Shown: positions 5,827 to 50,127 of the stretch, piece by piece
How positions within the stretch are numbered: position 1 is the first letter of the stretch
Layout of the letters: each line of letters begins with the position of its first letter
Source: Candidatus Bathyarchaeia archaeon
Lineage (GTDB): Archaea; Thermoproteota; Bathyarchaeia; 40CM-2-53-6; DTGE01
DNA: 64,000 bases
Assembly: GCA_038852285.1 (NCBI GenBank)
Contig: JAWCKG010000001.1
Location: 73,050-137,049 of the forward strand
Reading direction: 5' to 3'
Program-made: the position numbers and the translations under genes
Notes under the pieces: model-generated
Database searches by the model: none
What the model was told of the DNA's origin: nothing
Seen by the model: only the letters and a program-made list of their open reading frames with translations

Positions 5827-6285
5827 CTAAAGAGTCCTCTCGTTCAAAACCATTTCAACGATGTAGCCAGCCTTCCGCGCTTCCCGATCCACCAGCCCTC
5901 TTACCTTCGACCAATCAAATTCATACTTGTAGTCTTTCCCAAACAACTTCGAAAGCTCCTCAACGCTTCCAACCCTCTCCTTGCCCATCACCTTATATTT
6001 CTCAGCTTTAAATCCGAAGCCTGGAGAAATGTCTTCGCCTCCGGACACCCCTACACCTGTTTCTTTCAATGTTTCGAAGAATTTCACCTTTCTCGAGTCA
6101 TCATCCACACGTAATTTCGCCCTGTACATCAACGCCTTCTTAGAAAGAAAGACCTTCCTTTCCGCGACCTTCATTTCAAGCGAAAGTACACCCTCCTTCT
6201 CCTCTTTAAAGCTCGCAGGCAGGTCCTTACAGGCCTTAATAATTCTCTCCTTTAACGACATATGAACCATACACCTAACTTCCAC
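5827..6285 (-). CDS. Hypothetical protein (152 aa, Lys/Glu-rich; real start may be the internal MSLKERI)
   Basis: Intact ORF between the trp promoter region and a divergent promoter region. I recognise no motifs. Confidence 0.35.
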   Translation of the reverse strand: MEVRCMVHMSLKERIIKACKDLPASFKEEKEGVLSLEMKVAERKVFLSKKALMYRAKLRVDDDSRKVKFFETLKETGVGVSGGEDISPGFGFKAEKYKVMGKERVGSVEELSKLFGKDYKYEFDWSKVRGLVDREARKAGYIVEMVLNERTL

Positions 6286-6378
6286 GCCTACGCATACATG
6301 TAACAGTATTTAAACATTTAATGGTAGAGCTGTGATAAGAATCGATTACCCTTCATGTGTTGTTGAGCGATTTCGACT

Positions 6379-7761
6379 TTGACGTTCGCGACAACCGTTA
6401 ATAACTCCGGAAAATTAATATTTTCTATGCTTTTCGGCCCAGCGGTGGAGTTCGCCGCCACTATGTTGAAAGGGGTTGAACGAAAAGGAGTCAGCGAGAG
6501 AACTGAATTTTACGAGGAGTTGAAGAAGCGTCCTAAGCTTGCTCCTCAAACCGCTCGCTTCGCGTATCTTTTAGGCTGTGAAACGATTAGAAGATTGAAC
6601 TTCATAGATAAAGCGTTACTTAAAGCCATAGGAGGATGTGTCGGTGAGCTCAGCCTTGAAGCATTAAACATTCTAAGGATTTACGTTTACTGGTTTATGT
6701 TCAAGGAAACAACCACTGAAGATCGTGTGAGCTTTCTGAAAGATGCGGCGTCCCTGTTGAGGGGTGAAGATCGCCGTCACCTCATGGAGGCCGCTTTAAA
6801 GCTTTATGAGTTCAAACGGGGAAGGCTTCTAAACAAGCTTAGCGATGTTGAGAGGATTTCTCTTGAAAAATTTCATCCTGAATGGTTTGTTGAATACTGT
6901 TTTAGAAGGTTTGGTAAGAAGTTTTCTCTCCACCTGATGGACTCAAACAACCAGGTTAAACCCACGTATCTTCGAGTCAACACGTTAAAAGCAGACGAGG
7001 AGGAGGTGTTAGAGAGTTTAAGGCGTGAGGGTGTCCGTTTAAAACCTGTTCCAGGAGTGAAGTATGTTTACCGATTAGTGGGAACTAGAGTCCGTCTTCA
7101 TAGGGGTAAACACTACCATGCGGGGCTTTTCACAATTCAGGATAAAGCCAGCTGCATGGCCGTGTACTCGTTGGGCCCAACACCTGGAGAAGAGGTAATG
7201 GATGTATGCGCTGCGCCTGGGGGAAAAACATCCTTAATCGCTCAGTTGATGGAGAACGATGGAAGGATCTTTTCCTTGGACAGCTCTAAGAGCCGCATGG
7301 AAATTTGGAGGAGGGAAATGGCGAGGATGGGAGTTCAAATCGCCCATCCCATCCTAGGCGACGCGGCTAATCCTCCGGTAAAAATGTTAGTGGACCGATT
7401 GTTAATCGACCCTCCCTGCTCAGGAACAGGCTCCTTCAACGTGTTTCCAGGCATGAAGTGGCGTCTCGACATGAAAGCTCTTGACTCATATTCTAGGCTT
7501 CAGCGCATGATATTGAATCGTTCCTCCCAGTTTCTTAGAGTTGGGGGAGTTATGGTATACTCCGTTTGCAGTGTGATGGTTGAGGAGGGTGAAAAGGTCG
7601 TCGAAGCGTTCCTTAATCAAAACCCAAACTTCGAGCTGCTCCCAGCATACCCTGGGTTAGGGTCTCCACCGTTGATGGGTCATCCAGGGCCTGTTAGGGT
7701 TTACCCACATCTCGACGGGTGTTTCGGGTTTTTCATCGCCAAGTTGAGGAGGGTTGATTAA
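6379..7761 (+). CDS. NOL1/NOP2/Sun-family RNA cytosine-C5 methyltransferase with N-terminal NusB-like domain
   Basis: SAM-binding motif DVCAAPGGKT. Catalytic motif IV IDPPCSGTG and motif VI YSVCS. Confidence 0.8.
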   Translation: MTFATTVNNSGKLIFSMLFGPAVEFAATMLKGVERKGVSERTEFYEELKKRPKLAPQTARFAYLLGCETIRRLNFIDKALLKAIGGCVGELSLEALNILRIYVYWFMFKETTTEDRVSFLKDAASLLRGEDRRHLMEAALKLYEFKRGRLLNKLSDVERISLEKFHPEWFVEYCFRRFGKKFSLHLMDSNNQVKPTYLRVNTLKADEEEVLESLRREGVRLKPVPGVKYVYRLVGTRVRLHRGKHYHAGLFTIQDKASCMAVYSLGPTPGEEVMDVCAAPGGKTSLIAQLMENDGRIFSLDSSKSRMEIWRREMARMGVQIAHPILGDAANPPVKMLVDRLLIDPPCSGTGSFNVFPGMKWRLDMKALDSYSRLQRMILNRSSQFLRVGGVMVYSVCSVMVEEGEKVVEAFLNQNPNFELLPAYPGLGSPPLMGHPGPVRVYPHLDGCFGFFIAKLRRVD

Positions 7762-8684
7762 GAGGATTTCTGCGAGGCGGATACGAGTTCGAATATGGTT
7801 TTGGCCGCGAGAATTGAGGTAACTCCGCAATCAGGCAGCAGGGGGGTTCCCTCCGTGACGTCGAAGCCTAAAACACGTCTTCCCTCCAAGCGGTTTAATA
7901 CTCCAAACATCGTGGTGGGGGAGAGGCCCTCAGGCTCAGGGTTTCCAACGCCTGGAGCGTAGGATGGGTCGAAGACATCCATGTCGAGGGAAACGTATAC
8001 TTTGTCTAGGCGGGTTAGCTCGCGTTCAACCTCCTTGAATACGGCTTGACCCTTTTCCATAAACGCCCTCGAACCAAGGTACTTCAACCCACATTTCCTG
8101 ACAAACGCGATCTCCTCTTCACACGCTGCCCTTACCCCTAGGTGAACGATCTTATCAGCGCCCCTTTCTTCGATAATTCTCCTAAGAACCGAGGCGTGTC
8201 CGATGGTGCTGCCCATGTATTCCGGCCTAACGTCGAAGTGGGCGTCTAGGATCAGTAAACCCACATCCATGCTCAAAGCCCTAGAGGCCCCAAGCGTCAC
8301 CGTATGCTCCCCACCAACCATGATAATTTTCTTCTTATCCTTCAGAATGTTGAAGCAAGCCTTCCTAACGGACTCAACAACTTCCCCCGCGTTGTTGGAC
8401 ACGAAGAGGTCGCCGGCATCGTGGATTTTAGCCTTCTCAACATCGTAGTTATGCCTAAAGCTGTAGCCTTCGATGTTGACCGAGGCCTCCCTAACTGATG
8501 AAGGGAAAAACCTTGACCCAGGCCTGTAGGTGGAGGTTCCGTCGAACGGCGCGCCGAAGAAAACGTATTCAGCCTCCTCATAGCCTGTAGAGGAGTTTAG
8601 AAACCTCCCTACGGTTGAAAAGTAAAATTCCGACATGTTTCGGCCATCCTTACCTTCCACCTTCAACCTCAACACCATTAGCAC
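7758..8684 (-). CDS. speB: Agmatinase/arginase-family ureohydrolase
   Basis: Mn-binding signatures GGEHTVTLG, DAHFD and SLDMDVFDP. Confidence 0.8.
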   Translation of the reverse strand: MLMVLRLKVEGKDGRNMSEFYFSTVGRFLNSSTGYEEAEYVFFGAPFDGTSTYRPGSRFFPSSVREASVNIEGYSFRHNYDVEKAKIHDAGDLFVSNNAGEVVESVRKACFNILKDKKKIIMVGGEHTVTLGASRALSMDVGLLILDAHFDVRPEYMGSTIGHASVLRRIIEERGADKIVHLGVRAACEEEIAFVRKCGLKYLGSRAFMEKGQAVFKEVERELTRLDKVYVSLDMDVFDPSYAPGVGNPEPEGLSPTTMFGVLNRLEGRRVLGFDVTEGTPLLPDCGVTSILAAKTIFELVSASQKSS

Positions 8685-11552: not shown

Positions 11553-13769
11553 ATGAAACCTTTGAGCCTGCGCCGAGTCATCGTTTTCAGCCTGCTGTCT
11601 AGGCTGGTCTTATCACCCCTCACCGGACATCCATGGGACTTAAAGGTCTGGCTTGATGTGGGTAAACGGGTTACGGAGGGAGATATGAACCTCTACAGTC
11701 TAAACGGAAGACCTGAATGGATGTGGGGGTATTACGCTTATCCTCCAGGTTGGATGGGTTGGTGCGGGCTAGCCTACCTATTTAACTTCAACATCCACTT
11801 ATACGCAATCGTCCTGAAGCTTCCAATAATCCTCTCAGATCTAGCGACGGGCTATCTGATCTATCTTACCTTAAGGAGACTTGGTCAGTCGGAGGCTGAG
11901 TCCACATGTGGAGCGGCTCTATATTTTCTAAACCCTGTTTCGATCCTCATCTCGTCAGTTTGGGGCATGTTTGACGCCATACCAGCCATGCTCACCATCA
12001 TGGCCTTAAACCTGTTCATGGAGAAAAGCGAGCTGAGAGCTGGGATTCTGCTGGGTCTTGGCATTCTTTTTAAACTATACCCCGTCTTCCTAATATTGGC
12101 TTTTCTGGGCCAGGCTCGCCAAAGCGGAACTACGCCTCGCAAGTTGCTGGGGTTTTTATCAACAACCGCGGCGATTCCATTAGTGGCTTCCATACCCTTC
12201 ATCTTACGAGACTTCAAGGGATACGTGAACGCCCTGTTAAGCCATGCAGCTCCGTCAGGTTATATGAGCCTCTGGTTCACCATATCCCATTTATTCCACC
12301 CGTTAAAGGAGAAGAGCGGTGTATTGTTTTTAACCATGTTTATCACGTTGAATGTGTTTGTTTTTCGACGCCTCAGCCTTAGCAGGGGGTTGAACAACGA
12401 ATCAATTTACCTGACTTCATTGCTAATAATGCTTTGTTTCTTCATCGCGTCCCCTAAGGTGAATCCTCAATATGTGGTGTGGCTTTTACCTTTAGCCATC
12501 ATCGATTTCACCACCCGTCGAAGCGTTTTTACATATGGGTCGCTCAGCGGGATGACGGCTTTAACGTCCCTCATCATTACAGGAGCCATGGCTGTGAATA
12601 ACTCGTTTCTATTAGTTGACGTCGGTTTCCCAGACCCGGCCGTTGTTCAAAGCTTCATGGCTGCTATTGCGATTTCCTCGATCCTTTTTCCAATCCTATG
12701 CCTCGCCTATTTTCGCCGTACCTTAACGTTAGGAGTTTATAGGCCCCGTTGGCCAGGAAGGCTTGGCGTGACTTTAATCCTCATCATATTGGCCCTCAGC
12801 TACTTCACAGCTCCCATCCCCAAGAAGGTGGATGTGAAAACTCCTTTCATTCTATCCATGCCTGAGAGCCCGGCTACTGGGTTTACACCCATGCTTGCCG
12901 AATATGGGGTGAGGGAATTTCAGTCAAAGTATCGGAGCGATGGAGTTGTTTTACTCTTCGGCCCTGACTTCATCAACACCTACAGTGGATATGATCCGGA
13001 CAGAGATGTGAGGATGTTCTTCAAAGCGTATTACTATGATGAGTGGACGCAGAGGAGCGTTCGTGAGCTGGTTCGAAACCTGCACGAAGAGGGTGTGAAG
13101 GCGTATCTTGGAATCTTCACATTGAAGGATTATTTGGTCGATGGAAGGGGTTATGTTTCGCCATGGCTGAATAATCACAGCGAGGTCGTGGATGATAATC
13201 TCTTAAGGTTCGATAAAACCCTCCTCGAAAACGGGTCATCTCAAGCCTATTACGTTTATTTTAGCGAAAAAACTTTGAGGGTCGTGGTTGACTTCAACTT
13301 TGACGGGGTGGCCATTTTAAACCTCGTTTTAGAAGTGCCCCCCGCAGGATATTTCGAAGGTTTGTTAAAGTTGGCTGACCATTTGAATCGAACCATGGAG
13401 AAGGAGGTAATCCTCTGCGACACAATCGGAAGAAAGGCGTTCAACGACTATGAGGCGTTGCTGACTTACTCAGACCACCTCATCGTGCAGGCTTTACCTT
13501 GGTCTCGCGGCGTATACTACATGAAGGGAGAATATTGGTTTAGTAGTTTGATGCCTCAGGTAGCCGAAGCGGTGATGGGGGTAGGGCCTACCGGTAGGGC
13601 GAGGATTCTGTTAACGGTGGAGGTGATGGATGAACAGGAAGGATGGGTTAACTCACTTTATCTTATTAAAAGGGAGTTAAACGAGTTTGAAAAACTGGGG
13701 GTAGGTGGGCTCGTACTGGTTTACGCTAACCGGTTTTCTCCGTACTCGCTGAGCCGCCTTGACCTCTAA
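11553..13769 (+). CDS. Large polytopic membrane protein (738 aa), putative GT-C-fold glycosyltransferase (PMT/DUF2029-like) with a C-terminal soluble domain of about 300 aa
   Basis: At least 10 predicted TM helices in the first 430 aa. An Asp- and aromatic-rich first loop (WDLKVWLDVG..PEWMWGYYAYPPGWMGW) resembles GT-C donor-binding loops. Sits next to DPM1-like and QxxRW GTs. The functional call is inference. Confidence 0.45.
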   Translation: MKPLSLRRVIVFSLLSRLVLSPLTGHPWDLKVWLDVGKRVTEGDMNLYSLNGRPEWMWGYYAYPPGWMGWCGLAYLFNFNIHLYAIVLKLPIILSDLATGYLIYLTLRRLGQSEAESTCGAALYFLNPVSILISSVWGMFDAIPAMLTIMALNLFMEKSELRAGILLGLGILFKLYPVFLILAFLGQARQSGTTPRKLLGFLSTTAAIPLVASIPFILRDFKGYVNALLSHAAPSGYMSLWFTISHLFHPLKEKSGVLFLTMFITLNVFVFRRLSLSRGLNNESIYLTSLLIMLCFFIASPKVNPQYVVWLLPLAIIDFTTRRSVFTYGSLSGMTALTSLIITGAMAVNNSFLLVDVGFPDPAVVQSFMAAIAISSILFPILCLAYFRRTLTLGVYRPRWPGRLGVTLILIILALSYFTAPIPKKVDVKTPFILSMPESPATGFTPMLAEYGVREFQSKYRSDGVVLLFGPDFINTYSGYDPDRDVRMFFKAYYYDEWTQRSVRELVRNLHEEGVKAYLGIFTLKDYLVDGRGYVSPWLNNHSEVVDDNLLRFDKTLLENGSSQAYYVYFSEKTLRVVVDFNFDGVAILNLVLEVPPAGYFEGLLKLADHLNRTMEKEVILCDTIGRKAFNDYEALLTYSDHLIVQALPWSRGVYYMKGEYWFSSLMPQVAEAVMGVGPTGRARILLTVEVMDEQEGWVNSLYLIKRELNEFEKLGVGGLVLVYANRFSPYSLSRLDL

Positions 13770-30116: not shown

Positions 30117-31766
30117 TTAATATTGGTTTTCGGTTAGCTTTTTCCCCATGTATGGGCCTGTTAACCTGTAGCCTAGCCTCCTGTAGTATGGTCTTACACC
30201 AACCCCACTGGTGACGAGGATCGTGCGGGCGTCGTAATCCATGTAGGCGATCTCCTCCGCCTTCCTCACCAAGGCGTTGCCGTAGCCTCTATGTTGACAG
30301 CTATCCTCAGACCTCTCCCCCAATGGTAAAGCGGTTCCCAGCACGTGGAGCTCCCGTATGAAGGCGGTTTCGCCGCATCTTACCTCAGGCCTCCAAGCCT
30401 CGGTTGAAGGCTTCCTCAACCTAAGGTAGGCCATCAACGTATCTGTGGATTGGTGGACAAGGGAGATGAAGGCCTCCTCCCCTCCGGAAGCCTCATATCT
30501 GACGGTGTCAAACTTAACATCGTTAAAGTCAATTCTCAAACCGTCTTTATGTATTCTATGCCCCATCTCCCGGCATCTGATGCATCGACAGGCGTAGCCT
30601 TTAGACTTCAATCTCTCTAACGCCAGCTCGCGAAGGTTACCTTTCTTCACGCCATCCACGATCATCCAAGCCGGAATGTCTCTCTGAACCCTCATCACCC
30701 GAATCCATGGAGGAATGAGCTTCTTCACCTCAACGATTAAGTTAATTGTCGTCTCAAGATCGTAGGGCTTGTATTCCCCCCTCCTCCACTGTTGGTATAG
30801 TTGGCTGTGCCTTAACACTAGGCATGGATATATTTTCAGCATGTCCGGGCGGAAGTCAGCGTTGAAAAGCAGTCGCTTAAAGGAGTCTAGATCCCTTTCA
30901 GGAGTCATTTGGGGTAGCCCGATCATCATGTGGGCTACAACCTTTAACCCCGCGTCTTTACATGTTTGAAACGCCTTCCTTACGTCGTCGACGGTGTGGC
31001 CTCGGGCCACAGCCTTGTACACGTCGTTGTAAAGGGCTTGAACGCCCAGCTCAACCCTTGTGACCCCAAGCTTCAGCATGAAGTCAACTTCTCTTCTGCC
31101 GCATCGATCAGGCCTCGTCTCAACGGTGATGCCTACATTCCTCACAGTTGAGTTTTCAGCAGTCTTCTTCGCCTCCTCTAAACTGGAGGAAGGCTTTCCT
31201 GTTAATGCGTCTAGGCATCTTCTGATAAACCATTCCTGATATTTATGTGAGAGCGCGGGGAAGGTACCGCCTTGAACGATGATCTCAACCTTGCTGGGCC
31301 TATGCCCGGCGTCTTTCAGCTGGCTCAACCGGCTGGAAACCTGGGTGTAAGGGTCGAATCGATGTTGAATACCCCTCATGGAGGATGGTTCATAACCCGT
31401 GTAGCTTTGAGGCACCCCTGGAAACGATGGACAGTATAGGCATCGCCCATGAGGACAGCTGTGAGGCTTAGACATGACCGCTATGACTTGAACACCGGAT
31501 AGGCTTCTAACCTTCTTAAGAGCAAGTTTGGGGGCTAACTTCTTCCTGAGTGTTTCGGGCGCTTGGCTTAACAACTCGGGGTTGGAGGGGATATGGTGAA
31601 GAGAATATTTCCTCGCCACTTCAAGCTTGATCTTATTTAGGGCTTCGTCAGAAGTCTCAGGCTCGGCGGCGAGTCTCCTCAAAGCCTCCGTTAACGCGTC
31701 GTCGAAAACTCGAAACGGCTGCGCTAACTCTTTTAATCTCGCTTCGGCCGCCGGCACCTGAAACAC
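30117..31766 (-). CDS. elp3: Elp3-family radical SAM / GNAT acetyltransferase (tRNA U34 cm5U synthase)
   Basis: Radical SAM cluster SCPHGRCLYCP and a C-terminal GNAT (HRGYGNALVRKAEEIA). 549 aa. Confidence 0.85.
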   Translation of the reverse strand: MFQVPAAEARLKELAQPFRVFDDALTEALRRLAAEPETSDEALNKIKLEVARKYSLHHIPSNPELLSQAPETLRKKLAPKLALKKVRSLSGVQVIAVMSKPHSCPHGRCLYCPSFPGVPQSYTGYEPSSMRGIQHRFDPYTQVSSRLSQLKDAGHRPSKVEIIVQGGTFPALSHKYQEWFIRRCLDALTGKPSSSLEEAKKTAENSTVRNVGITVETRPDRCGRREVDFMLKLGVTRVELGVQALYNDVYKAVARGHTVDDVRKAFQTCKDAGLKVVAHMMIGLPQMTPERDLDSFKRLLFNADFRPDMLKIYPCLVLRHSQLYQQWRRGEYKPYDLETTINLIVEVKKLIPPWIRVMRVQRDIPAWMIVDGVKKGNLRELALERLKSKGYACRCIRCREMGHRIHKDGLRIDFNDVKFDTVRYEASGGEEAFISLVHQSTDTLMAYLRLRKPSTEAWRPEVRCGETAFIRELHVLGTALPLGERSEDSCQHRGYGNALVRKAEEIAYMDYDARTILVTSGVGVRPYYRRLGYRLTGPYMGKKLTENQY

Positions 31767-33112: not shown

Positions 33113-34177
33113 ATGCGTAGAACTGGGGTTGTAAGCCTTCCTCTACATGAGGGTAGGTGTCCAAGCTGGGTTTTTCCTAGGATGGTTCAGCTTTGCAGGG
33201 AAATCTCTAAAATCGTTTTACTCGAGTACCCAGTAGAGCAGTTTCTTAAAAGGCTGTCCAACCCATTCTTCTTTCAAGCTCTGGGCTGCGTGTTAGGCTT
33301 CGACTGGCATTCCTCAGGCTTGACAACCACGACCTGCGCCGCTTTGAAGGAGGCTTTAAACAGCGAAAACCTCGGGGTGAAGGTGGCTGGAGGCAAGGGC
33401 TCAGCCTCCAAGAAAACCCCTGAGGAGATTATGTCTCTGGCCACCTGCGACGTGGAACGGTTGGTGTACGCTTCCAGGCTTTCAGCTAAGGTGGATAACG
33501 CTCTGGTTCAAGACGGATATCAACTATACCATCACACCATCGTGTTTTCGGAGGATGGGTCCTGGACGGTTATTCAGCAGGGGTTGAATCCTGAAAACGG
33601 CTACGCCCGCCGATATCACTGGTTGTCAACCAGAGAAGTGAAGCTGGAAAGCTTTGTAGAGGAGCCGCATCAAGCGATATGCTGCGACAGGAGAGGTGAA
33701 ACGCTGGATTTAACGTCCAAGCGCTCCAGGGAAGCCCGTGAAGTCAGCCTCGACTTGGTGAAAGACGACCCTAAACACCTTGAAAAATATCTGACGGGCC
33801 AAACGAGCCTAGTTGACTTTCATCTTCCACGCAGCCACCTTATACCTCGAATGGGTGAAAGATGCTTAAAGACGCTGCGTAGGGTGTACGAGGCGCAGCC
33901 GAGAACCTACGAAGAATTGGTCAGCTTCAAAGGGGTTGGTCCTAAAACGGTTAGAGCCCTCGCCTTAATTTCAAAATTGATCTACGGAGCTGAGCTCTCA
34001 TGGGTGGATCCTGCTGAATACTCCTTCGCCCACGGGGGGAAGGATGGAGTACCATATCCCGTGAGCGTAGCGTTAATGGAAGAGTCAGCTCAAATGTTGA
34101 AGCAGGCCGTTGAAGAAGCCAGAATAGGGGTTAAAGACAAGTTGCACGCTTTAAGAAGGCTAAAAACACTAGTATGA
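33113..34177 (+). CDS. Conserved hypothetical protein with a C-terminal helix-hairpin-helix (FKGVGPKTVRALAL). Possibly DUF763-like.
   Basis: 354 aa intact ORF. The HhH GVGPKT motif is clear. The family assignment is from memory and weak. Confidence 0.45.
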   Translation: MRRTGVVSLPLHEGRCPSWVFPRMVQLCREISKIVLLEYPVEQFLKRLSNPFFFQALGCVLGFDWHSSGLTTTTCAALKEALNSENLGVKVAGGKGSASKKTPEEIMSLATCDVERLVYASRLSAKVDNALVQDGYQLYHHTIVFSEDGSWTVIQQGLNPENGYARRYHWLSTREVKLESFVEEPHQAICCDRRGETLDLTSKRSREAREVSLDLVKDDPKHLEKYLTGQTSLVDFHLPRSHLIPRMGERCLKTLRRVYEAQPRTYEELVSFKGVGPKTVRALALISKLIYGAELSWVDPAEYSFAHGGKDGVPYPVSVALMEESAQMLKQAVEEARIGVKDKLHALRRLKTLV

Positions 34178-41432: not shown

Positions 41433-41981
41433 CTAGAGGTAGGCGATGTAGTATTTAAAACCTGAGCTGGGAGGATCTGGGAATCGGTAAAGAAAGTCCT
41501 TCAACTTTAGAACGGATACCACAGGAATCCCTTCGGCATCCCTAATCTCTGAATCGCCAAGGGTTAACATAACGGGGATGAGGTAAAGCTTTTTCAAACC
41601 TCTCAAGGGCAGTTTAGCTTTTAAATGCTTCACATGCCCTGCGAGGGCTTCAGTTCTCCTTAGATGCGCCTTGGAGGCGGCGTGTATTCTAGAGGACCAG
41701 TATGGAAACATCCATTGCTTACAGTCTACGCTCATCAAAACATTCAACTTTAAAGCGAGGATATCGATTTGGAACCTTTTTTTAGAGAAGGTGGTAAACG
41801 TGAATCCTTTGAGGACTTCAAAACCGTTCAGCCTAAAGGCCTCGAAGATCAGCCACTCAAACTCCCACCAGTCTAAAGACCCACAGACCTTAGAGGGACT
41901 GCCCCCCTGGTTTAACGCTTCAACCACGCGATCGATCCTAGGTTCCGCTAACTTCCTCGATGTCGACGCTTTTCCGTCCAT
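41433..41981 (-). CDS. PD-(D/E)xK nuclease, Hjc (Holliday junction resolvase)-like / Mrr_cat-like, with N- and C-terminal extensions
   Basis: EFEWLIFEAFRLNGFEVLKG..SKKRFQIDILALK..LMSVDCK lines up with the Hjc pattern E..GF.V.R..SGSKRK..DIIALK..IEMK (E / D / (E/D)xK catalytic residues). Confidence 0.5.
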   Translation of the reverse strand: MDGKASTSRKLAEPRIDRVVEALNQGGSPSKVCGSLDWWEFEWLIFEAFRLNGFEVLKGFTFTTFSKKRFQIDILALKLNVLMSVDCKQWMFPYWSSRIHAASKAHLRRTEALAGHVKHLKAKLPLRGLKKLYLIPVMLTLGDSEIRDAEGIPVVSVLKLKDFLYRFPDPPSSGFKYYIAYL

Positions 41982-42234: not shown

Positions 42235-43050
42235 TTGAAAGATCTGCTATATAACATCCGCACCCAAGCTACAGCCAGGTGCGCTAAAGTGGCTGTTGGA
42301 TTGCAGAAGCGGTCAGAGGATGTATTCAACTCTGTGTTAAATGCTCACCGACGCGGCCACGCTAAAGTCATCATCGTTTGCCCTGAAGGTGAGGGTTGGC
42401 CTCAAGGCGTTGAATGTGTTTCGGCCCGAGATCCAGCGGAAACGATGATCTCCATGCTGCGAAGGGGTGAGGTGGATGCGGCCGTGAGGGGAACACTTTC
42501 GGCGAGCGGGGTGATCGCCGAGGTTAAGATACAGTTCAAGGTGGATAGGATGCTTCGAATCGCCCTTCTTACCACAGCGCGGGGGTCCCCATTCTTCCTG
42601 GCACCTATAGGCGTTGACGAGGGAGAAACCTTGAACGAAAAGGCTGAGCTTATTGAAGCGGGAGTTGAGCTGCATAGGAGGCTGGGAGTTAACCCTAAGG
42701 TTTCAATCCTGTCGGGTGGAAGGTTGGAGGATTTGGGACGTAGCAGGCTTGTAGACGAGTCCTTAAAAAACGGGGAAAAACTAGTCCGCATGATGGAGGA
42801 GAGGGGCAAGTTTGAGGTAAAACACCACGGAATACTCGTTGAAGAGGCTTTGAGGGAGGGTTACACATTTATCATCGCGCCATCAGGCATATCGGGCAAC
42901 CTCATCTTTAGGGCTTTGGTCTTCTTGGGAGGTGGGATGGCCATCGGCGCCCCCTACATGGGCGTTCCTAAACCCTTGGTCGACGTTTCAAGGGCTATGG
43001 GTGATGTATCCGACGCCATCGCCCTAGCCAGCGCCTTAACGAAACCTTAA
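42235..43050 (+). CDS. Phosphate acetyl/butyryl-transferase (PTA_PTB/PlsX) family protein
   Basis: C-terminal [45 protein letters not shown] parallels the Pta C-terminal catalytic region. Confidence 0.5.
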
Positions 43051-43108: not shown

Positions 43109-44059
43109 ATGGAGGTTTTAGACGCCTCAGAGTTGAAGGAGAAGTACGGAAACGTAGAGTGGATTTCCCCTTATCAAAGAATAGTGGCGATGACAGGCGA
43201 CGATGGGCTCATCGAAATCCACGAGTTTCACGCGAGGGGTAAATGCATAGGGGGCTCAGCGTGGGAAATATACCATTACCCAAGGGTGAGCAAGCTGGTC
43301 TTATCAGCGAGAAGGGAGGGGGCTAGGAACATATTCGTCCTGAAAGCAGGTAGATGCGATCTCAATTTAATCCCTGGCTTGGCTGGGGCTGGCATCGAAA
43401 GAGCTGAAGTCAAAGGGGATGAAGCCCACATCACCTACGCGGGTCTGGCTGGCGGGGGCATAGCCGCCACCGTTTGCAGGGGACTAGCGGAGGGTGTGAA
43501 GCGCATCGAAATCCATGAGAGGGGGGGTGGAGGCAAGCTAGGCCGGTCCACGCTCATCCTCCCATTGAGGAGGAAGATAATCCTCGGGGTCGACGACACC
43601 GATGAGCCTCGTAGGGGAGCCACTTGGAGCCTTATCAACGAGATCTCCAACACGCTGGACAGGGAGGGTGTGGCCGAATACCTAGGGCATACCATTACTC
43701 AATTATACACGAAGAACCCGGTTAAAACCACGAATTGCGTGAGCATAGCCGCCACCTTCGCCGTCGAGCCAAACTCAGTCAACCGACTACAAGACCTCTT
43801 TATAAGCCGTGTAAAAGCCGCCACGTTCTCTCCGCACACGGGCTTGGCGATTTACGGAAACATCCAAGCAAATGATGGCTTAAAAGCGTATACAATGGAG
43901 GCGAAGTCCCGGCTTGTCGAACTATCTGAGGCGGAGGAGGTGGCGGAAAGGGAGGGTGTAAAACTAATACCCATCACAGGTGAAAGAGGTTTGATCGGAG
44001 CCCTAGCCGCCATCGGCTACGCAGATAACCCCGATGAAGCCGTTAAGCCTTTTAGGTAA
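43109..44059 (+). CDS. Two-domain protein. The N-terminal part is Gly-rich with an unknown fold. The C-terminal part resembles the TiaS Thr18-Cyt kinase domain (TCKD).
   Basis: LGVDDTDEPRRGATWSL...QLYTKNPVKTTNCVSIAATFAVE resembles the TiaS N-terminal GIDDTDSPRGMCTTY...LNPNIPFKTRGNGAVSF. The TiaS OB-fold and Zn-ribbon C-terminus is absent. Confidence 0.4.
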   Translation: MEVLDASELKEKYGNVEWISPYQRIVAMTGDDGLIEIHEFHARGKCIGGSAWEIYHYPRVSKLVLSARREGARNIFVLKAGRCDLNLIPGLAGAGIERAEVKGDEAHITYAGLAGGGIAATVCRGLAEGVKRIEIHERGGGGKLGRSTLILPLRRKIILGVDDTDEPRRGATWSLINEISNTLDREGVAEYLGHTITQLYTKNPVKTTNCVSIAATFAVEPNSVNRLQDLFISRVKAATFSPHTGLAIYGNIQANDGLKAYTMEAKSRLVELSEAEEVAEREGVKLIPITGERGLIGALAAIGYADNPDEAVKPFR

Positions 44060-45185
44060 ATCTTTCATAGGTTTTTTAAGGCCAGTACCCTTGTTGAGCA
44101 TCGACCCCGCTACGTTAAAAATACACCTACACTCCTACGGTGTAAGGCTCAGCCCAACCATAGGAGGCTATAGGAAAGGCGGAGCCGGTCCTGTTGGGAA
44201 ATCTCTCATACTGCCCGGCGGCTTGGTCGCGTCGGTTCCAACCCTCGGGGGATTCGTAGAGCGATCACCCTACAGAATTCTAAGCGAGGATGGGAGGCTC
44301 AGGCTTTACCGCGACGATGATTACCTCGGTGAGGTGGTGGAGGTTCCTATCCCAAGTTTCTACGCGGAGAGAACCTCAGATGGAACCTTAATGGAGAAGG
44401 TCGCGGTTCTCCATGGGGTTGATTGCCTTGCCTCAACGGTCTACCAGAAATGCGTTTACTGGGAGATGGGTATAAGGTGTAAATTTTGCTCCATCGAATA
44501 TTCCCTAAATGATGGATGGACCACATTGTGGAAGTCGCCTAGCCAGCTGGCTGAAACTGCGGCGAAGGCTGAGGAGGAAGGTGTCGTCAAGCACGTAACC
44601 CTAACCACTGGAACACCCAACTTAACCGATCGGGGCGCCCGTATGCTCTGCGAATCGGTGAAGGCGATCAAGGACTCGACGCGTCTACCGGTTCACGTTC
44701 AACTCGAGCCCCCGAATGATTTAAACGACATCGCAAAACTGAAAGACGCGGGAGCCGACACCATAGGCATTCACATTGAATCCTTCGACGACAAGGTTTT
44801 GAGGGAGACCTGTCCAGCTAAGAGGGGTAAAGAACGATTCTTTAGGTGCTGGGAGGTCGCGGTGGAGCTTTTTGGAGAGAGCCAGGTAAGCTCTTTTCTC
44901 ATCATTGGACTAGGCGAAAGCGATAAAAGCCTATACGCCGGAGCTGAGCAAATGGCGAGGCTAGGCGTCATACCCTACCCTGTCCCCCTTCGACCCCATC
45001 CTAAGACTGAACTTGGGGACAAGGCTCCACCTCCACCGGAAAGGACTTTAAAAATCTACAGAGCATTTTTAAGGATCATGGAAAGCTACGGAGTTCACCC
45101 GGAGAAATGTCTCGCCGGCTGCGTGCGATGCGGGGGATGCTCAGCGATCAACGACTTACGAAGCATCAAAACCGCCTATTCATGA
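44034..45185 (+). CDS. Radical-SAM-like TIM-barrel protein with a non-canonical Cx8Cx2C motif and a C-terminal Cx3Cx2Cx2C cluster
   Basis: QKCVYWEMGIRCKFCSI (aromatic before the last Cys), Gly-rich LTTGTPNL, and GADTIGIHIESFDDKVL. C-terminal CLAGCVRCGGC. Overlaps the upstream gene by 26 nt. Confidence 0.4.
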   Translation: MKPLSLLGKSFIGFLRPVPLLSIDPATLKIHLHSYGVRLSPTIGGYRKGGAGPVGKSLILPGGLVASVPTLGGFVERSPYRILSEDGRLRLYRDDDYLGEVVEVPIPSFYAERTSDGTLMEKVAVLHGVDCLASTVYQKCVYWEMGIRCKFCSIEYSLNDGWTTLWKSPSQLAETAAKAEEEGVVKHVTLTTGTPNLTDRGARMLCESVKAIKDSTRLPVHVQLEPPNDLNDIAKLKDAGADTIGIHIESFDDKVLRETCPAKRGKERFFRCWEVAVELFGESQVSSFLIIGLGESDKSLYAGAEQMARLGVIPYPVPLRPHPKTELGDKAPPPPERTLKIYRAFLRIMESYGVHPEKCLAGCVRCGGCSAINDLRSIKTAYS

Positions 45186-46418: not shown

Positions 46419-46757
46419 GTGGAGGTGGGGTGTTTGTACGCGTATTGGATACAGACTGTCGCACCATCGATCTACAACGTGAAAGTTAGGAAGGGCGCCA
46501 CCAACTTTACCTTGGAATGCGAATGGGAAGGCATGGGAACGGTTGGGTTTCAGATTAAGACCCCGGAGAAAACGTATTTGGAGGATGAGCTGGAGGTTTC
46601 TGAGAAAACAGTCATCTGCATGGATGGGGTGGCTAGGTATCGGTGCGTGAAGCGGGCCTCTTTGAAGATGAAGCCTCTTCCAAGGGAGGAGAGCTGGACG
46701 GTTCAGCTGAATCTCTTTCAGGTTTCAAGATATAAACTTACGATAGAGGCTTTCTAG
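46419..46757 (+). CDS. Small hypothetical protein (112 aa)
   Basis: Intact ORF. Shares a YN.K..(8)L.W..(E)G..G motif with the next ORF. Confidence 0.35.
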   Translation: MEVGCLYAYWIQTVAPSIYNVKVRKGATNFTLECEWEGMGTVGFQIKTPEKTYLEDELEVSEKTVICMDGVARYRCVKRASLKMKPLPREESWTVQLNLFQVSRYKLTIEAF

Positions 46758-46782: not shown

Positions 46783-47160
46783 TTGAAGATAGATGTTCAC
46801 TGCTCCCTGTTCAACATGAGGAAGTTTCTCATAGATAGTACATGCCGGGATATCATGCCCCTAGCCCTGTACAGGGATGAGGAAGTGTTTCCGGAGAGGT
46901 CTACGACAGCTGGTAGAATGTACATTGAGGCGAAGGATAAGCAGACCTTGGTGACCGCTGGGGAAATTCGTTTTGTCAAGGTTTCAAACGTGGATCTCAT
47001 CGTATACAATTCTAAAAGCGGGCGGACGAGGCTGAAGTGGACGAGGCTCGAAGGGGAAAACGGTAAGCTTTCAGGGGAGGCCAGCCTAAATACCCTCGTT
47101 AACCTGGCGGCCGCTAAGATCATAAGCTTGCAAGACGGTGAGAAGGCTTACACCGCATAA
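46783..47160 (+). CDS. Small hypothetical protein (125 aa), probable paralog of the preceding ORF
   Basis: YNSKSGRTRLKWTRLEGENGKLSG versus YNVKVRKGATNFTLECEWEGMGTVG. Confidence 0.35.
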   Translation: MKIDVHCSLFNMRKFLIDSTCRDIMPLALYRDEEVFPERSTTAGRMYIEAKDKQTLVTAGEIRFVKVSNVDLIVYNSKSGRTRLKWTRLEGENGKLSGEASLNTLVNLAAAKIISLQDGEKAYTA

Positions 47161-47872: not shown

Positions 47873-48451
47873 TTGGTTTGGCCATTAACTAGGTTTGCTA
47901 AGGTTTTATCGCATGCGCTATCACCGTTCGCCTCCTCAGCGTGGGCTATAGTGGTTATAGCGTTAAACCGATACCCGGATGTCAGAGGGGTGTTATACTT
48001 TTTAGCTGGGGTCACTCTCACCTCTATTATCCCCTTCCTCTTCATCTTCAGCTACGCCCGAAGGGAGAACGTTGAGGTTGAAATCCCTGATAGAGGAGCT
48101 CGACCATCTCTTTTTACACCTGTCTTCGCGGGTTACGCGGCCTCAGGAATCCTATTCTACACGTTGAATTTTAGGGACATGCTCCTCCTATCTTTATCCT
48201 ACGTGGAGGTCAGCTTCCTCATACTGTTGGTGACGTTTAAATGGAAGATCAGCGTACATACAGCCGGGCTCACCGTCCCTGTTACCGCTTTAACATACAT
48301 TTTCGGATGGAAAACGGCTTGGATCTATCCATTAGTGGGCCTGCTCATATGGGCCAGGGTGAAGCTTAAGGCGCACAGCCTCCCCCAAGCGGTTTCAGGC
48401 GCGGCTATAGGCGTTGCCCTTACCTCAGCGACCTTCATCCTCGCGCGTTAA
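47873..48451 (+). CDS. PAP2-like (type 2 phosphatidic acid phosphatase superfamily) membrane protein
   Basis: 6 TM helices. Motif-2-like SVHTAG and motif-3-like ARVKLKAHSLPQAVSGAAIG. The match is degenerate. Confidence 0.4.
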   Translation: MVWPLTRFAKVLSHALSPFASSAWAIVVIALNRYPDVRGVLYFLAGVTLTSIIPFLFIFSYARRENVEVEIPDRGARPSLFTPVFAGYAASGILFYTLNFRDMLLLSLSYVEVSFLILLVTFKWKISVHTAGLTVPVTALTYIFGWKTAWIYPLVGLLIWARVKLKAHSLPQAVSGAAIGVALTSATFILAR

Positions 48452-48473: not shown

Positions 48474-49400
48474 CTATGTGGAAAGAATTTTCGCACCACC
48501 TGTAGGTTTTGCCACGTATCCCTCGCAGCGAACTCCCATAGCTTGGAAGGTTTCAGCCATCACGTTGGAAACCAATTCACCTTCCTTCCGGTTTCTCACA
48601 ACGGCGATGGCAGTTGGTCCGGCGCCGCTGAGGGTAACCCCACATGCTCCAGCTTTTAAAGCTGCCCTCTTGGCTTCTACGTATCCCTTGTAAAGGTGGG
48701 CTCGTTTAGGCTCCACTACTCTGTCTCTCATCATCGCTTTTCCCAAGGATTCAGGATCGCCTTTCAACATGGCGGCTACCGCTAAACATGCTCCACCTAG
48801 ATTGTGAACGAAATCCTTCAAATCCACCCTCCTCGGCAAAATGGCCCTAGAGGCCTCTGTGGTCTTTTCAATCGAGGGAACCGCTAGGGCGAAGGTCATG
48901 TCAACGGGAGGATAGGCTTGAACCAAGATGGGCTTATAGGAGTAGATGATGGTAAAACCACCGTAGATGGAGGGGGCCACGTTGTCGGCGTGAACAGCGC
49001 CGGCTGAGACTCTCTCCCCTTCAGCCGCTACTCTTACCAACTCCAGTTTCGACAATCCTAAATCCAGCAAGGTGTTGAGGGCGATAGCTGTCCCAGCGGC
49101 GCTGGCCCCGCTGCTCCCTAGCCCTGAACCAGCGGGGATGCCTTTGCTAAGCTTAATTTTCACACCCTCCTCCAAGTTGAAGCGTTGCAGAATTAGGGAC
49201 GCTGTTAACCCCGCGGTGTTGAACGCTGGGTCCGAGCTAACCCTATCTTTGGAAACACCTTCCACTTCAACCTTTACCTTTTCCGGTCCAAAGCTCACTT
49301 CGACGATGTCGGCGAAGACATCTAGGGCGAGTCCGAGGACGTCGAAGCCAGCCCCAAGGTTGCTGGTGGATGAAGGCGCCTTGACGACCACCCTTTCCAT
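48474..49400 (-). CDS. thrB: Homoserine kinase (GHMP kinase)
   Basis: N-terminus MERVVVKAPSSTSNLGAGFDVLGLAL and the ATP-binding motif PAGSGLGSSGASA. Confidence 0.85.
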   Translation of the reverse strand: MERVVVKAPSSTSNLGAGFDVLGLALDVFADIVEVSFGPEKVKVEVEGVSKDRVSSDPAFNTAGLTASLILQRFNLEEGVKIKLSKGIPAGSGLGSSGASAAGTAIALNTLLDLGLSKLELVRVAAEGERVSAGAVHADNVAPSIYGGFTIIYSYKPILVQAYPPVDMTFALAVPSIEKTTEASRAILPRRVDLKDFVHNLGGACLAVAAMLKGDPESLGKAMMRDRVVEPKRAHLYKGYVEAKRAALKAGACGVTLSGAGPTAIAVVRNRKEGELVSNVMAETFQAMGVRCEGYVAKPTGGAKILST

Positions 49401-49475
49401 TAAACGCTACCCAGCATTTAAATTCAAGTTAATGATATTTTTATTTTGGTCGCTTAAATTGGTTAGGTTCATCTT

Positions 49476-50127
49476 CATGCTTACCCATCGGGATGTAACG
49501 GTCCCAAACGCCCTAGAGCTCCTCACAGAGGTTAGGGAGACTGGTTTACGGTGCATTGGATTTAAGGATGTGGGAGTTGGCGTTGACATTATGAAGCGTC
49601 TAGTTTCGGAGGCTCATCGCTCAGGCATGGAGACGTTTCTTGAGGTGGTGACGGATGCGAGGGATGAATGCGTGAAGTCGGCTGAAACCGCTTTAGAATT
49701 AGGCGTGGACTACTTGATTGGAGGAACCTATGTGGACGACACGTTGAAGGCCATAAAGGGCTCAGAAGTTAAATACTTCCCCTACATCGGGACCGTGGAA
49801 GGGCATCCATGCGTCTTGAAAGGCTCAACGGATATGATCGTCGCTGACGCCCTACGAGTGGCTGAGCTTGGGGTCGACGGGGTAAACCTTTTAGCATACC
49901 GGTATGTTGGAGATCCGGAGCAGTTAATCCGGTCCGTTAAGGAAGCCATAAACCTCCCGATAATCATCGCCGGCTCCATTGACGATGAAAAGAAAATAAT
50001 GAGGGTTAAAGGGTTTGAGGTGTGGGGGTTTACCATCGGCGGAGCCATCGTTGAGAAAAGGCTCCTACCTAGCGGCTCGGTAAGGGACCAAGTAACATAC
50101 GTGTTAAGCCTCATCGGAGAAAGATAA
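49476..50127 (+). CDS. TIM-barrel phosphate-binding protein of unknown function (NanE/Eda-like C-terminal GG motif)
   Basis: Start at MLTHRD. The ORF track's upstream extension overlaps thrB on the opposite strand. Alternating beta/alpha pattern with C-terminal IIIAGSI...IGGAIV. Confidence 0.4.

What the first reader, a model, noticed from the sequence alone, without database searches (positions are those of the whole stretch)
43109..45185. Overlapping two-gene cassette: TiaS-kinase-domain (TCKD)-like protein plus non-canonical radical-SAM-like protein
The first ORF has an N-terminal Gly-rich domain of about 150 aa with no match I recognise. It is fused to a segment that lines up with the N-terminal Thr18-Cyt kinase domain of tRNA(Ile2) agmatidine synthetase TiaS: GVDDTDEPRRGATW and NPVKTTNCVSIAATFAVE versus TiaS GIDDTDSPRGMCTTY and NPNIPFKTRGNGAVSF. 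It lacks the OB-fold and Zn-ribbon that TiaS uses to bind tRNA. It overlaps by 26 nt with a TIM-barrel protein carrying a radical-SAM-like but non-canonical Cx8Cx2C cluster (CVYWEMGIRCKFC) and an extra C-terminal Cx3Cx2Cx2C cluster. TCKD is an unusual ATP-dependent nucleobase-activating kinase fold. I am not aware of a TCKD paired with a radical SAM enzyme as a described system. It could be an unexplored RNA, nucleotide or cofactor modification pathway.
Basis: partly seen in the sequence, partly recalled or inferred. Interest (0 to 1): 0.75.

Follow-up and report, generated by a model that had tools for sequence, protein, structure and literature searches.

The report
Methanogenesis marker 11 plus radical-SAM partner
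Two neighbouring genes in an uncultured Bathyarchaeia genome belong to catalogued families of unknown function (a TiaS-like ATP-using enzyme called methanogenesis marker protein 11, and a variant radical-SAM enzyme), and they stay side by side in many archaea and some bacteria, which suggests they work together in an unknown pathway.

Summary

ORF2 is a radical-SAM enzyme of the MSMEG_0568/NitD family. Its Cx8Cx2C motif and a C-terminal CxxCxxC are invariant among relatives. Its real start is probably TTG 44091 or 44094, so the 26-nt overlap is an artefact.

The upstream gene is MtxX (Mmp4), so the unit is mtxX-mmp11-rSAM.

The TCKD resemblance of Mmp11 is already recorded in Pfam and in Adam et al. 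2022. I found no description of the pairing with the radical-SAM gene. The rSAM lies next to mmp11 in 41 of 80 loci across seven lineages, including bacterial Actinomycetota. It is absent next to mmp11 in Methanomethylicia and Methanocaldococcus. In most other Bathyarchaeia loci the same rSAM instead sits next to an Mmp2-like AIR-synthase-like gene.

Function is unknown. My best guess is an ATP-plus-radical modification of a non-tRNA substrate.

The parts
42235..43050 (+). mtxX / methanogenesis marker protein 4 (PTA-like fold). First gene of the three-gene unit.
   Evidence: NCBIfam TIGR03270 212 bits (cut-off 190) and Pfam PTA_PTB 24 bits. It is 58 nt upstream of ORF1 on the same strand. The same order mtxX-mmp11-rSAM occurs in L003 with different flanks. 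MtxX lies in the same locus as mmp11 in 19 of 80 loci.
43109..44059 (+). mmp11: methanogenesis marker protein 11, 316 aa, two domains.
   Evidence: TIGR03280 341 bits (cut-off 256). 784 homologues, and an identical protein in a Ca. Bathyarchaeia MAG. AF2 pLDDT 95.
43109..43579 (+). Mmp11-specific N-terminal domain (residues 1-157). It is Gly-rich, with invariant H41, R43, W52, E53, H56, R69, N74, Y110, R124 and the GLAGGG and GGG loops.
43580..44056 (+). TiaS-type Thr18-Cyt34 kinase domain (TCKD), residues 158-316. The GVDDTD motif is at 43586-43603.
44094..45185 (+). Radical-SAM enzyme of the MSMEG_0568/NitD family, 363-364 aa. The start is probably TTG 44091 or 44094, not ATG 44034.
   Evidence: TIGR04043 308.5 bits (cut-off 303.7), NF045502 variant_rSAM 192 bits, Pfam Radical_SAM 67 bits. 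Start inferred. Nearest solved relatives are lipoyl synthase (E 1e-7), ThiH and BioB.
44451..44489 (+). Variant radical-SAM cluster motif C-x8-C-x2-C (CVYWEMGIRCKFC).
   Evidence: All three Cys are invariant in 40 Mmp11-linked homologues. Spacing to the first Cys is 5-8 residues. The last two Cys align with the CxxC of lipoyl synthase CX3CX2C.
45108..45140 (+). C-terminal Cys cluster C-x3-C-x2-C-x2-C, probably the site of an auxiliary Fe-S cluster.
   Evidence: The last three Cys (GCxxCxxC) are invariant in 40 of 40. The first Cys is present in 13 of 40.

Best explanation
The locus is a three-gene unit, mtxX (Mmp4), mmp11, and an MSMEG_0568/NitD-family radical-SAM gene, in a Bathyarchaeia genome.

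Shown:
- Mmp11 is a two-domain enzyme. A family-specific N-terminal domain replaces the FLD, OB-fold and Zn-ribbon that TiaS uses to hold tRNA. It is fused to a structurally intact TiaS kinase domain that keeps the DDTD metal/ATP motif.
- The rSAM is a LipA/BioB/ThiH-like TIM-barrel enzyme with an expanded Cx5-8Cx2C motif and a conserved C-terminal CxxCxxC.
- mmp11 and this rSAM have stayed adjacent, and have diverged in parallel, across at least seven lineages.

Inferred:
- The two enzymes act on one non-tRNA substrate, most likely a small molecule or cofactor-like metabolite.
- Mmp11 uses ATP to phosphorylate a carbonyl or amide oxygen, as TiaS does at C2 of cytidine. That oxygen can then be displaced by, or eliminated in favour of, a nitrogen or sulfur function.
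- The rSAM carries out a hydrogen-abstraction step, possibly sulfur insertion or bond cleavage using its second cluster.
- MtxX probably handles a phospho- or acyl-bearing intermediate.
- In many Bathyarchaeia the same rSAM sits next to an Mmp2-like AIR-synthase-like (PurM-fold) protein. That fold also activates carbonyl oxygens with ATP, and it may play the same or a neighbouring role.
For: Identity: family scores; 784 homologues; TiaS sequence and fold match.

N-domain: the domain is unique to this architecture; invariant polar residues in it, consistent with a binding or catalytic site.

rSAM.

Linkage:
- The rSAM is next to mmp11 in 41 of 80 loci. Counts: Bathyarchaeia 5 of 5 with room, Archaeoglobi 16, Methylarchaceae 2, Korarchaeia 1, Methanofastidiosa 4 of 4, Methanocellales 1, Actinomycetota 12 of 12.
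- Orientation: 37 downstream on the same strand, 3 upstream, 1 convergent. Flanking genes differ between lineages.
- Two mmp11 copies lie in each of two Methanofastidiosa loci; in L028 they flank the rSAM directly.
- Mmp11 and rSAM distance matrices correlate: r 0.87, Mantel 0 of 2000.
- The bacterial loci carry a sigma-70 gene next door, so they are truly bacterial.

Network:
- rSAM with an AIR-synthase-like gene in 42 of 80 metagenome loci. Its best families are methan_mark_2 and sll0787.
- L043 has mmp11, the rSAM and the AIR-like gene together.
- rSAM with mtxX in L092, L094 and L134.
- mtxX is adjacent to mmp2 in Methanomicrobiales and Methanotrichales (PMC12978539).
- AIR-synthase-like, the TiaS-type arCOG01116 and MtxX share a phyletic pattern (PMC4153887, Table 5). 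Equating arCOG01116 with Mmp11 is my inference from source names.

Small-molecule leaning:
- There are no RNA-binding domains.
- The rSAM family often sits beside a sulfonate/NitT-type ABC transporter.
- The rSAM is the NitD component of the bacterial Nit1C metabolic cluster (PMC11049912).
Against: - No substrate, product or activity is known for Mmp11, MtxX, Mmp2 or the MSMEG_0568/NitD rSAM, so the chemistry rests on analogy only.
- The pairing is facultative. There is no adjacent rSAM in 17 Methanomethylicia, 3 Thermoplasmata, 2 Methanonatronarchaeia and 1 Methanocaldococcus loci.
- No homologue named from a cultured classical methanogen appears among the 120 best rSAM hits of two searches. 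Mmp11 evidently works without this rSAM in many organisms.
- Conversely, 79 of the 80 closest rSAM loci lack mmp11 next door.
- The distance correlation is partly explained by shared species history.
- A novel N-domain could equally bind RNA or protein.
- Whether Mmp11 binds ATP was not tested.
Confidence: 0.45

Rival explanations
1. RNA modification. Mmp11 is a TiaS paralogue whose new N-terminal domain recognises a different RNA site. It phosphorylates a base carbonyl and attaches an amine. The rSAM then trims or rearranges the adduct, as the radical-SAM enzyme RaSEA does with ArcS in archaeosine synthesis (my own knowledge of that system).
For: The only characterised TCKD acts on tRNA C34. 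The catalytic motif and fold are fully kept. There is a precedent for a tRNA-modifying enzyme that works with a radical-SAM partner. The two-gene module moved into bacteria as a self-contained unit, which is easy to picture for an RNA-modification cassette.
Against: No FLD, OB-fold, Zn-ribbon or any known RNA-binding domain is present. The rSAM is closest to small-molecule or lipoyl-type enzymes (LipA, ThiH, BioB). It is also the NitD member of a metabolic cluster and often lies next to an ABC importer. MtxX has a PTA-like metabolite-binding cleft (PMC12978539).
Confidence: 0.2
2. Protein or metallocofactor maturation. Mmp11, the rSAM, MtxX and the Mmp2-like protein mature an enzyme or metal cluster shared by methanogens and their relatives. 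This would resemble HypE (PurM fold) and the radical-SAM enzymes that build hydrogenase ligands, or the post-translational modifications of methyl-coenzyme M reductase.
For: Mmp2, Mmp4 and Mmp11 track methanogens closely. mmp2 usually clusters with mmp3, 5, 6, 15 and 17. The AIR-synthase-like partner belongs to the same superfamily as HypE and SelD. The MtxX cleft bound an acidic peptide C-terminus in the crystal.
Against: The window shows no mcr or mtr genes, and the lineages with the pair include bacterial Actinomycetota. The Actinomycetota loci have no obvious target gene nearby. No candidate precursor or target is conserved beside the pair.
Confidence: 0.15
3. The adjacency has no functional meaning. 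ORF1 is a decaying remnant of methanogenesis or a tiaS fragment, and ORF2 is an unrelated enzyme that happens to lie next to it.
For: Adam et al. 2022 treat such markers in non-methanogens as remnants of unknown role. The rSAM mostly occurs without mmp11 next door, and mmp11 often occurs without the rSAM.
Against: ORF1 is full length, with 48 invariant columns across 87 homologues and a confident two-domain model. Adjacency recurs in seven lineages with different flanks and with rearranged order. Duplicated mmp11 copies lie in the same loci as the rSAM and flank it directly in L028. The distance matrices correlate.
Confidence: 0.05

Closest known systems
TiaS, tRNA(Ile2) 2-agmatinylcytidine synthetase (PDB 3AMT, 3AMU, 3U02)
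   Different: It scores 41.8 bits against the TiaS equivalog model, whose cut-off is 600. It has no FLD, OB-fold or Zn-ribbon. It carries a family-specific 157-residue N-terminal domain that TiaS lacks. Its substrate is therefore almost certainly not tRNA(Ile2) C34. It also has a conserved radical-SAM neighbour.
Methanogenesis marker protein 11 (TIGR03280; DUF1743-type; marker m17 of Adam et al. 2022)
   Same: ORF1 is a member: 341 bits against a cut-off of 256, full-length match, same two-domain architecture.
   Different: The host is a Bathyarchaeia MAG, and the window shows no methanogenesis genes. JGI calls the family an 'imperfect' marker. Here it lies between mtxX and a radical-SAM gene. 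I found no description of that arrangement in the literature searches I ran.
Nit1C cluster (nitBCDEFGH; MSMEG_0565-0572, sll0783-0787), core NitD radical-SAM plus NitF AIR-synthase-like
   Same: ORF2 passes the TIGR04043 cut-off for the NitD/MSMEG_0568 family. In other Bathyarchaeia loci, its closest homologues are followed by an AIR-synthase-like gene related to sll0787/NitF and to Mmp2.
   Different: ORF2 passes only marginally (308.5 against 303.7), and the Archaeoglobi partners fall below the cut-off (221 bits). No nitrilase, GNAT, flavoprotein or AIR-synthase-like gene was found next to it in the window. The ATP-using partner is a TCKD protein rather than a PurM-fold protein. The role of NitD is itself unknown.
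Lipoyl synthase, biotin synthase and ThiH group of radical-SAM enzymes
   Same: These are the nearest solved relatives by sequence profile (E 1e-7 to 3e-5). They share a TIM-barrel radical-SAM core, and ORF2 has a second Cys cluster, as the sulfur-inserting members do.
   Different: Scores are far below the family cut-offs (LipS2 40 against 270; BioB 33 against 225). The cluster motif is Cx8Cx2C rather than CX3CX2C. The auxiliary Cys motif is C-terminal CxxCxxC, unlike LipA or BioB.

Membership tests
Methanogenesis marker protein 11 (TIGR03280) | Whole-protein score above the curated cut-off, with a full-length match. | tested here: met
   340.9 bits against 255.8; residues 21-313 match profile positions 1-291 of 292.
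Methanogenesis marker protein 11 (TIGR03280) | Two-domain architecture: family-specific N-domain plus TCKD, about 300-350 aa. | tested here: met
Methanogenesis marker protein 11 (TIGR03280) | Occurs in a methanogen or methane-metabolising archaeon. | tested here: inconclusive
   The host is a Ca. Bathyarchaeia MAG. No mcr or mtr genes lie in the 64-kb window. The rest of the genome was not available.
TiaS, tRNA(Ile2) agmatidine synthetase (NF040849) | Whole-protein score above the equivalog cut-off. | tested here: not met
   41.8 bits against 600, and only residues 157-305 match.
TiaS, tRNA(Ile2) agmatidine synthetase (NF040849) | TCKD kinase domain with the DDTD motif. | tested here: met
TiaS, tRNA(Ile2) agmatidine synthetase (NF040849) | Ferredoxin-like domain, OB-fold and Zn-ribbon that bind tRNA. 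| tested here: not met
   TiaS_FLD scores 17.2 bits, below the cut-off of 21, and overlaps the TCKD. The protein ends at residue 316 right after the TCKD.
TiaS, tRNA(Ile2) agmatidine synthetase (NF040849) | Agmatine conjugation to C34 of tRNA(Ile2). | not testable with these tools
   This needs biochemistry.
Radical SAM superfamily (PF04055) | Pfam score above the gathering cut-off. | tested here: met
   67 bits against 29.5; residues 148-300.
Radical SAM superfamily (PF04055) | Canonical CX3CX2C cluster motif. | tested here: not met
   The motif is Cx8Cx2C here and Cx5-8Cx2C in homologues. All three Cys are invariant. It also matches NCBIfam 'variant_rSAM' NF045502 at 192 bits.
Radical SAM superfamily (PF04055) | Reductive cleavage of SAM on a [4Fe-4S] cluster. 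| not testable with these tools
   This needs biochemistry.
MSMEG_0568 / NitD radical-SAM family (TIGR04043) | Whole-protein score above the curated cut-off. | tested here: met
   308.5 bits against 303.7, a marginal pass. Relatives range from 221 to 337 bits.
MSMEG_0568 / NitD radical-SAM family (TIGR04043) | Nit1C-type neighbourhood: nitrilase, GNAT, AIR-synthase-like protein, flavoprotein. | tested here: not met
   The neighbours are mmp11 upstream and a ZIP transporter downstream. There is no AIR-synthase-like gene in the window.
MtxX / methanogenesis marker protein 4 (TIGR03270), for the upstream gene | Whole-protein score above the curated cut-off. | tested here: met
   212.4 bits against 190.
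Lipoyl synthase / biotin synthase | Score above the family cut-off, with the family's auxiliary-cluster motif. | tested here: not met
   LipS2 39.9 against 270; LipA 26 against 310; BioB 33 against 225. The auxiliary Cys motif is also different.

The most novel reading that the evidence does not exclude
Mmp11 would be the first non-tRNA use of the TiaS kinase fold. Together with the MSMEG_0568/NitD-type radical-SAM enzyme, and with MtxX and an Mmp2-like PurM-fold enzyme as further or alternative partners, it would form one undescribed ATP- and radical-dependent pathway. That pathway would make or salvage a metabolite or cofactor needed by methanogens, their non-methanogenic relatives and some anaerobic Actinomycetota. 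It would give a function to three orphan 'methanogenesis markers' and to the orphan core of the bacterial Nit1C cluster at once.
Probability: 0.3. Interest if true: 0.8.

Novelty: new variant of a known kind. Interest (0 to 1): 0.55.

Why it matters
Methanogenesis markers 2, 4 and 11 have been listed for well over a decade as proteins found in all or nearly all methanogens, yet none has a known function. The MSMEG_0568/NitD radical-SAM enzyme of the Nit1C cluster is equally unassigned.

This locus and its relatives link these orphans through gene neighbourhood:
- mmp11 with the rSAM in 41 loci from seven lineages.
- The rSAM with an Mmp2-like gene in 42 loci.
- mtxX with each of them.

That gives a concrete starting point for experiments: co-express Mmp11 with its rSAM, and look for ATP- and SAM-dependent chemistry. 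It also suggests that the unusual TiaS kinase fold has a second role outside tRNA modification. The transfer of the two-gene module into anaerobic Actinomycetota suggests that the module can work outside a methanogen.

Tried and rejected
- **Broken tiaS:** rejected. ORF1 is a full-length member of a conserved family with its own N-domain.
- **Second TCKD or tiaS in the window:** none found by a six-frame G[IVLA]DD[TS]D scan. The rest of the genome could not be searched.
- **Nit1C context:** no nitrilase, GNAT or AIR-like gene was found near the locus.
- **Methanomethylicia context of mmp11:** mtxX, aconitase-family large and small subunits, an acetolactate-synthase-like TPP enzyme and an FAD/Fer4 oxidoreductase. 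I considered this as a hint to coenzyme B synthesis, but it fits ordinary leu/ilv genes equally well. Not used.
- **Thiamine idea:** it rested on an NMT1/THI5-type binding protein, ThiL-like hits of the AIR-like protein, and Thi4 and ThiI near the Methanohalarchaeum rSAM. This is suggestive only. The binding protein passes the sulfonate-family model instead.
- **Literature searches:** searches for 'methanogenesis marker protein 11', Mmp11, DUF1743 and TiaS plus marker returned nothing on function.
- **Remaining window genes:** housekeeping, with no mcr, mtr or Wood-Ljungdahl genes.
Full report
**What is at the coordinates.**
Three same-strand ORFs lie close together:
- 42235-43050 (271 aa).
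- 43109-44059 (316 aa, ORF1 of the finding).
- 44034-45185 (383 aa as the longest ORF, ORF2).

They are flanked by a NERD/Mrr-like gene on the opposite strand upstream and a ZIP metal transporter on the opposite strand downstream. An identical ORF1 protein is recorded from a Candidatus Bathyarchaeia MAG (QXO32_00575, GCA_038870315.1). The rest of the window is housekeeping: tryptophan synthesis, GatDE, Elp3, topoisomerase, IMPDH, DNA ligase, a sugar ABC transporter and AFOR. It contains no mcr, mtr or Wood-Ljungdahl genes.

**ORF1.**
- NCBIfam places it in methanogenesis marker protein 11 (TIGR03280, 341 bits, cut-off 256).
- Pfam finds a TiaS TCKD domain at residues 159-284 (55 bits, cut-off 27).
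- The TiaS equivalog model scores only 42 bits against a cut-off of 600, and the FLD hit is below cut-off.
- A profile of 87 homologues hits TiaS chains in the PDB over residues 156-306 (3u02 E 5e-13; 3amt, 3au7 and 4rvz about 1e-8).
- D162, D163, T164, D165 and G170-A171-T172-W173 are invariant.

So the TCKD similarity is real, and the protein stops right after that domain.

**ORF2.**
- It matches Pfam Radical_SAM (67 bits), NCBIfam variant_rSAM (192 bits) and, marginally, the MSMEG_0568 family TIGR04043 (308.5 against 303.7). This family is NitD of the bacterial Nit1C cluster, whose role is unassigned (PMC11049912).
- In 40 homologues that lie next to mmp11, the three Cys of the Cx8Cx2C motif are invariant. 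The first spacing shrinks to 5-6 residues in the actinobacterial versions.
- A C-terminal GCxxCxxC is invariant. The extra Cys four residues upstream is kept in 13 of 40.
- The nearest solved relatives are lipoyl synthase, ThiH and biotin synthase.
- Homologues are about 357 aa and cover 92-94% of the 383-aa ORF. NCBI called 363 aa. The 89%-identical P0121 starts MLSIEP. TTG codons lie at 44091 and 44094.

The gene therefore most likely starts 31-34 nt after the ORF1 stop, and the 26-nt overlap is an artefact.

**The upstream gene.**
The upstream gene is MtxX, methanogenesis marker 4 (TIGR03270, 212 bits). A 62%-identical Mmp11 in another Bathyarchaeia contig sits in the same mtxX-mmp11-rSAM order with entirely different flanks.

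**Is the pair conserved?**
A scan of one genome per species returned 79 mmp11 loci. The counts below add one copy of the window's own locus, giving 80. tblastn with the window's proteins finds the rSAM directly beside mmp11 in 41 of these 80.

| Lineage | rSAM beside mmp11 |
|---|---|
| Bathyarchaeia-like | 5 of 5 loci with room |
| Archaeoglobi (Geoglobus, Archaeoglobaceae) | 16 |
| Ca. Methylarchaceae | 2 of 2 |
| Korarchaeia (Methanodesulfokora) | 1 |
| Methanofastidiosa | 4 of 4 |
| Methanocellales MAG | 1 |
| Actinomycetota (Geothermincolia, Anoxymicrobiaceae and others) | 12 of 12 |
| Methanomethylicia | 0 of 17 |
| Thermoplasmata | 0 of 3 |
| Methanonatronarchaeia | 0 of 2 |
| Methanocaldococcus | 0 of 1 |

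- The order is rSAM downstream on the same strand in 37 loci, upstream in 3 and convergent in 1.
- Flanking genes differ between lineages. The actinobacterial loci carry a sigma-70 gene next door, so they are truly bacterial.
- Two Methanofastidiosa loci carry two Mmp11 paralogues. In L028 they flank the rSAM directly.
- Pairwise distances of Mmp11 and of its neighbouring rSAM correlate (r 0.87, Mantel 0 of 2000). Korarchaeia group with Archaeoglobi in both. Shared species history explains part of this.

**The view from the rSAM is different.**
- Of the 80 closest rSAM loci in metagenomes (41-52% identity), only one has mmp11 beside it, and three have mtxX.
- In 42 of them the rSAM is followed by an AIR-synthase-like gene. 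Its best families are methanogenesis marker 2 (286 bits, below the cut-off of 365) and sll0787/NitF (206 bits). A sulfonate/NitT-type ABC transporter often lies upstream.
- In a neighbour-joining tree, mmp11-linked and AIR-linked rSAMs interleave within the Bathyarchaeia clade.
- One actinobacterial locus, L043, has mmp11, the rSAM and the AIR-like gene together.
- No homologue named from a cultured classical methanogen appears among the best 120 hits of two rSAM searches. Methanohalarchaeum has one that is far from its mmp11.

The pairing is therefore strong but facultative.

**What the literature says.**
- Adam et al. 2022 already describe marker m17 as DUF1743 with a TiaS domain, 'predicted to function as an ATPase', with function indeterminate (PMC9635834 supplement).
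- Borrel et al. 2014 list an AIR-synthase-like protein, the TiaS-type arCOG01116 and MtxX with near-identical phyletic patterns (PMC4153887). Equating arCOG01116 with Mmp11 is my inference from source names.
- The 2026 MtxX crystal-structure paper reports that mtxX lies next to mmp2 in Methanomicrobiales and Methanotrichales. It also reports a PTA-like fold with a basic cleft (PMC12978539).
- No paper I could find mentions the radical-SAM neighbour.

**Interpretation.**
The shown facts are the family assignments, the domain anatomy, the Cys motifs, the corrected start and the neighbourhood statistics.

The inference is that Mmp11 and the rSAM act on one substrate. TiaS uses its TCKD to phosphorylate the C2 oxygen of cytidine with ATP so that agmatine can displace it. 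That statement rests on established knowledge of TiaS (Ikeuchi 2010; Terasaka 2011; Osawa 2011), cited from memory. PurM-fold enzymes such as PurM, PurL and HypE likewise activate carbonyl oxygens with ATP. An rSAM that pairs with either a TCKD protein or a PurM-fold protein therefore suggests a shared logic: ATP-driven activation of a carbonyl plus one radical step.

Three things make a small-molecule or cofactor substrate somewhat more likely than RNA or protein: the absence of RNA-binding domains, the LipA/ThiH/BioB affinity of the rSAM, and its ABC-importer and Nit1C contexts. None of these is decisive.

**Verdict.**
This is a real, well-conserved gene unit made of catalogued orphan families. 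The novelty of the proteins themselves was overstated, and the overlap is wrong. The conserved mmp11-rSAM pairing, its spread into bacteria and its link to Mmp2-like and MtxX genes appear to be undescribed. They give a testable entry into long-standing orphan 'methanogenesis markers'.

Noticed in passing
L028:6004-6951 and L028:8065-9060; L029:4190-5116 and L029:6001-6873: Methanofastidiosa loci carry two Mmp11 paralogues. In L028 both pass TIGR03280 (the second at 312 bits) and each is about 48% identical to the window protein. In L028 the order is mtxX-mmp11-rSAM-mmp11.
   Followed up: partly
L100:1318-2286 and 41 other metagenome loci (L083-L162); L043:8223-9251: The closest relatives of the window's radical-SAM gene are usually followed by an AIR-synthase-like gene that is intermediate between methanogenesis marker 2 and sll0787/NitF. 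They are often preceded by a sulfonate/NitT-type ABC transporter (binding protein, permease, ATPase). This links the bacterial Nit1C core to methanogenesis-marker families.
   Followed up: partly
L019, L021, L034, L036, L038, L039, L043, L045, L046, L052, L055 (mmp11 at about 6001-6945): The mmp11-rSAM pair occurs in anaerobic Actinomycetota MAGs (Geothermincolia, Anoxymicrobiaceae and others) beside a sigma-70 factor gene. This suggests transfer of the two-gene module from archaea to bacteria.
   Followed up: partly
L163:6001-7071 with neighbours at 7458-8237 and 11573-12724: In Ca. Methanohalarchaeum thermophilum the rSAM homologue is not near mmp11. It sits next to a Thi4-family gene and a few kb from ThiI. 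This may be chance or may hint at sulfur or thiamine chemistry.
   Followed up: no
L022:25-729 (minus strand): The Methanodesulfokora (Korarchaeia) locus has a second, distant TCKD-like match (27% identity to Mmp11) about 5 kb from mmp11. It could be the genuine tiaS or another paralogue.
   Followed up: no
L059-L075 (Methanomethylicia), for example L079:4341-5927 and L066:1889-3076: In Methanomethylicia, mmp11 lies in a different conserved block: mtxX, aconitase-family large and small subunits, an acetolactate-synthase-like TPP enzyme, mmp11, then an FAD/GMC-type oxidoreductase with a 4Fe-4S motif.
   Followed up: partly
window 46419-46757 and 46783-47160 (+); window 49072-50127 (+); window 47873-48451 (+): Several ORFs just downstream of the locus have no Pfam match at E 0.001. 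Two are small adjacent ORFs of 112 and 125 aa. Whether they are real genes was not examined.
   Followed up: no
window 30117-31766 (-) and 33113-34177 (+): An Elp3-type radical-SAM protein (ELP3_N, Radical_SAM and Radical_SAM_C domains; no acetyltransferase-domain hit was reported) and a DUF763 protein lie about 10 kb upstream. They are unrelated to the finding.
   Followed up: no
window 41433-41981 (-): A 182-aa ORF divergent from mtxX has weak NERD and Mrr-type nuclease-domain hits (20 bits, just below cut-off).
   Followed up: no
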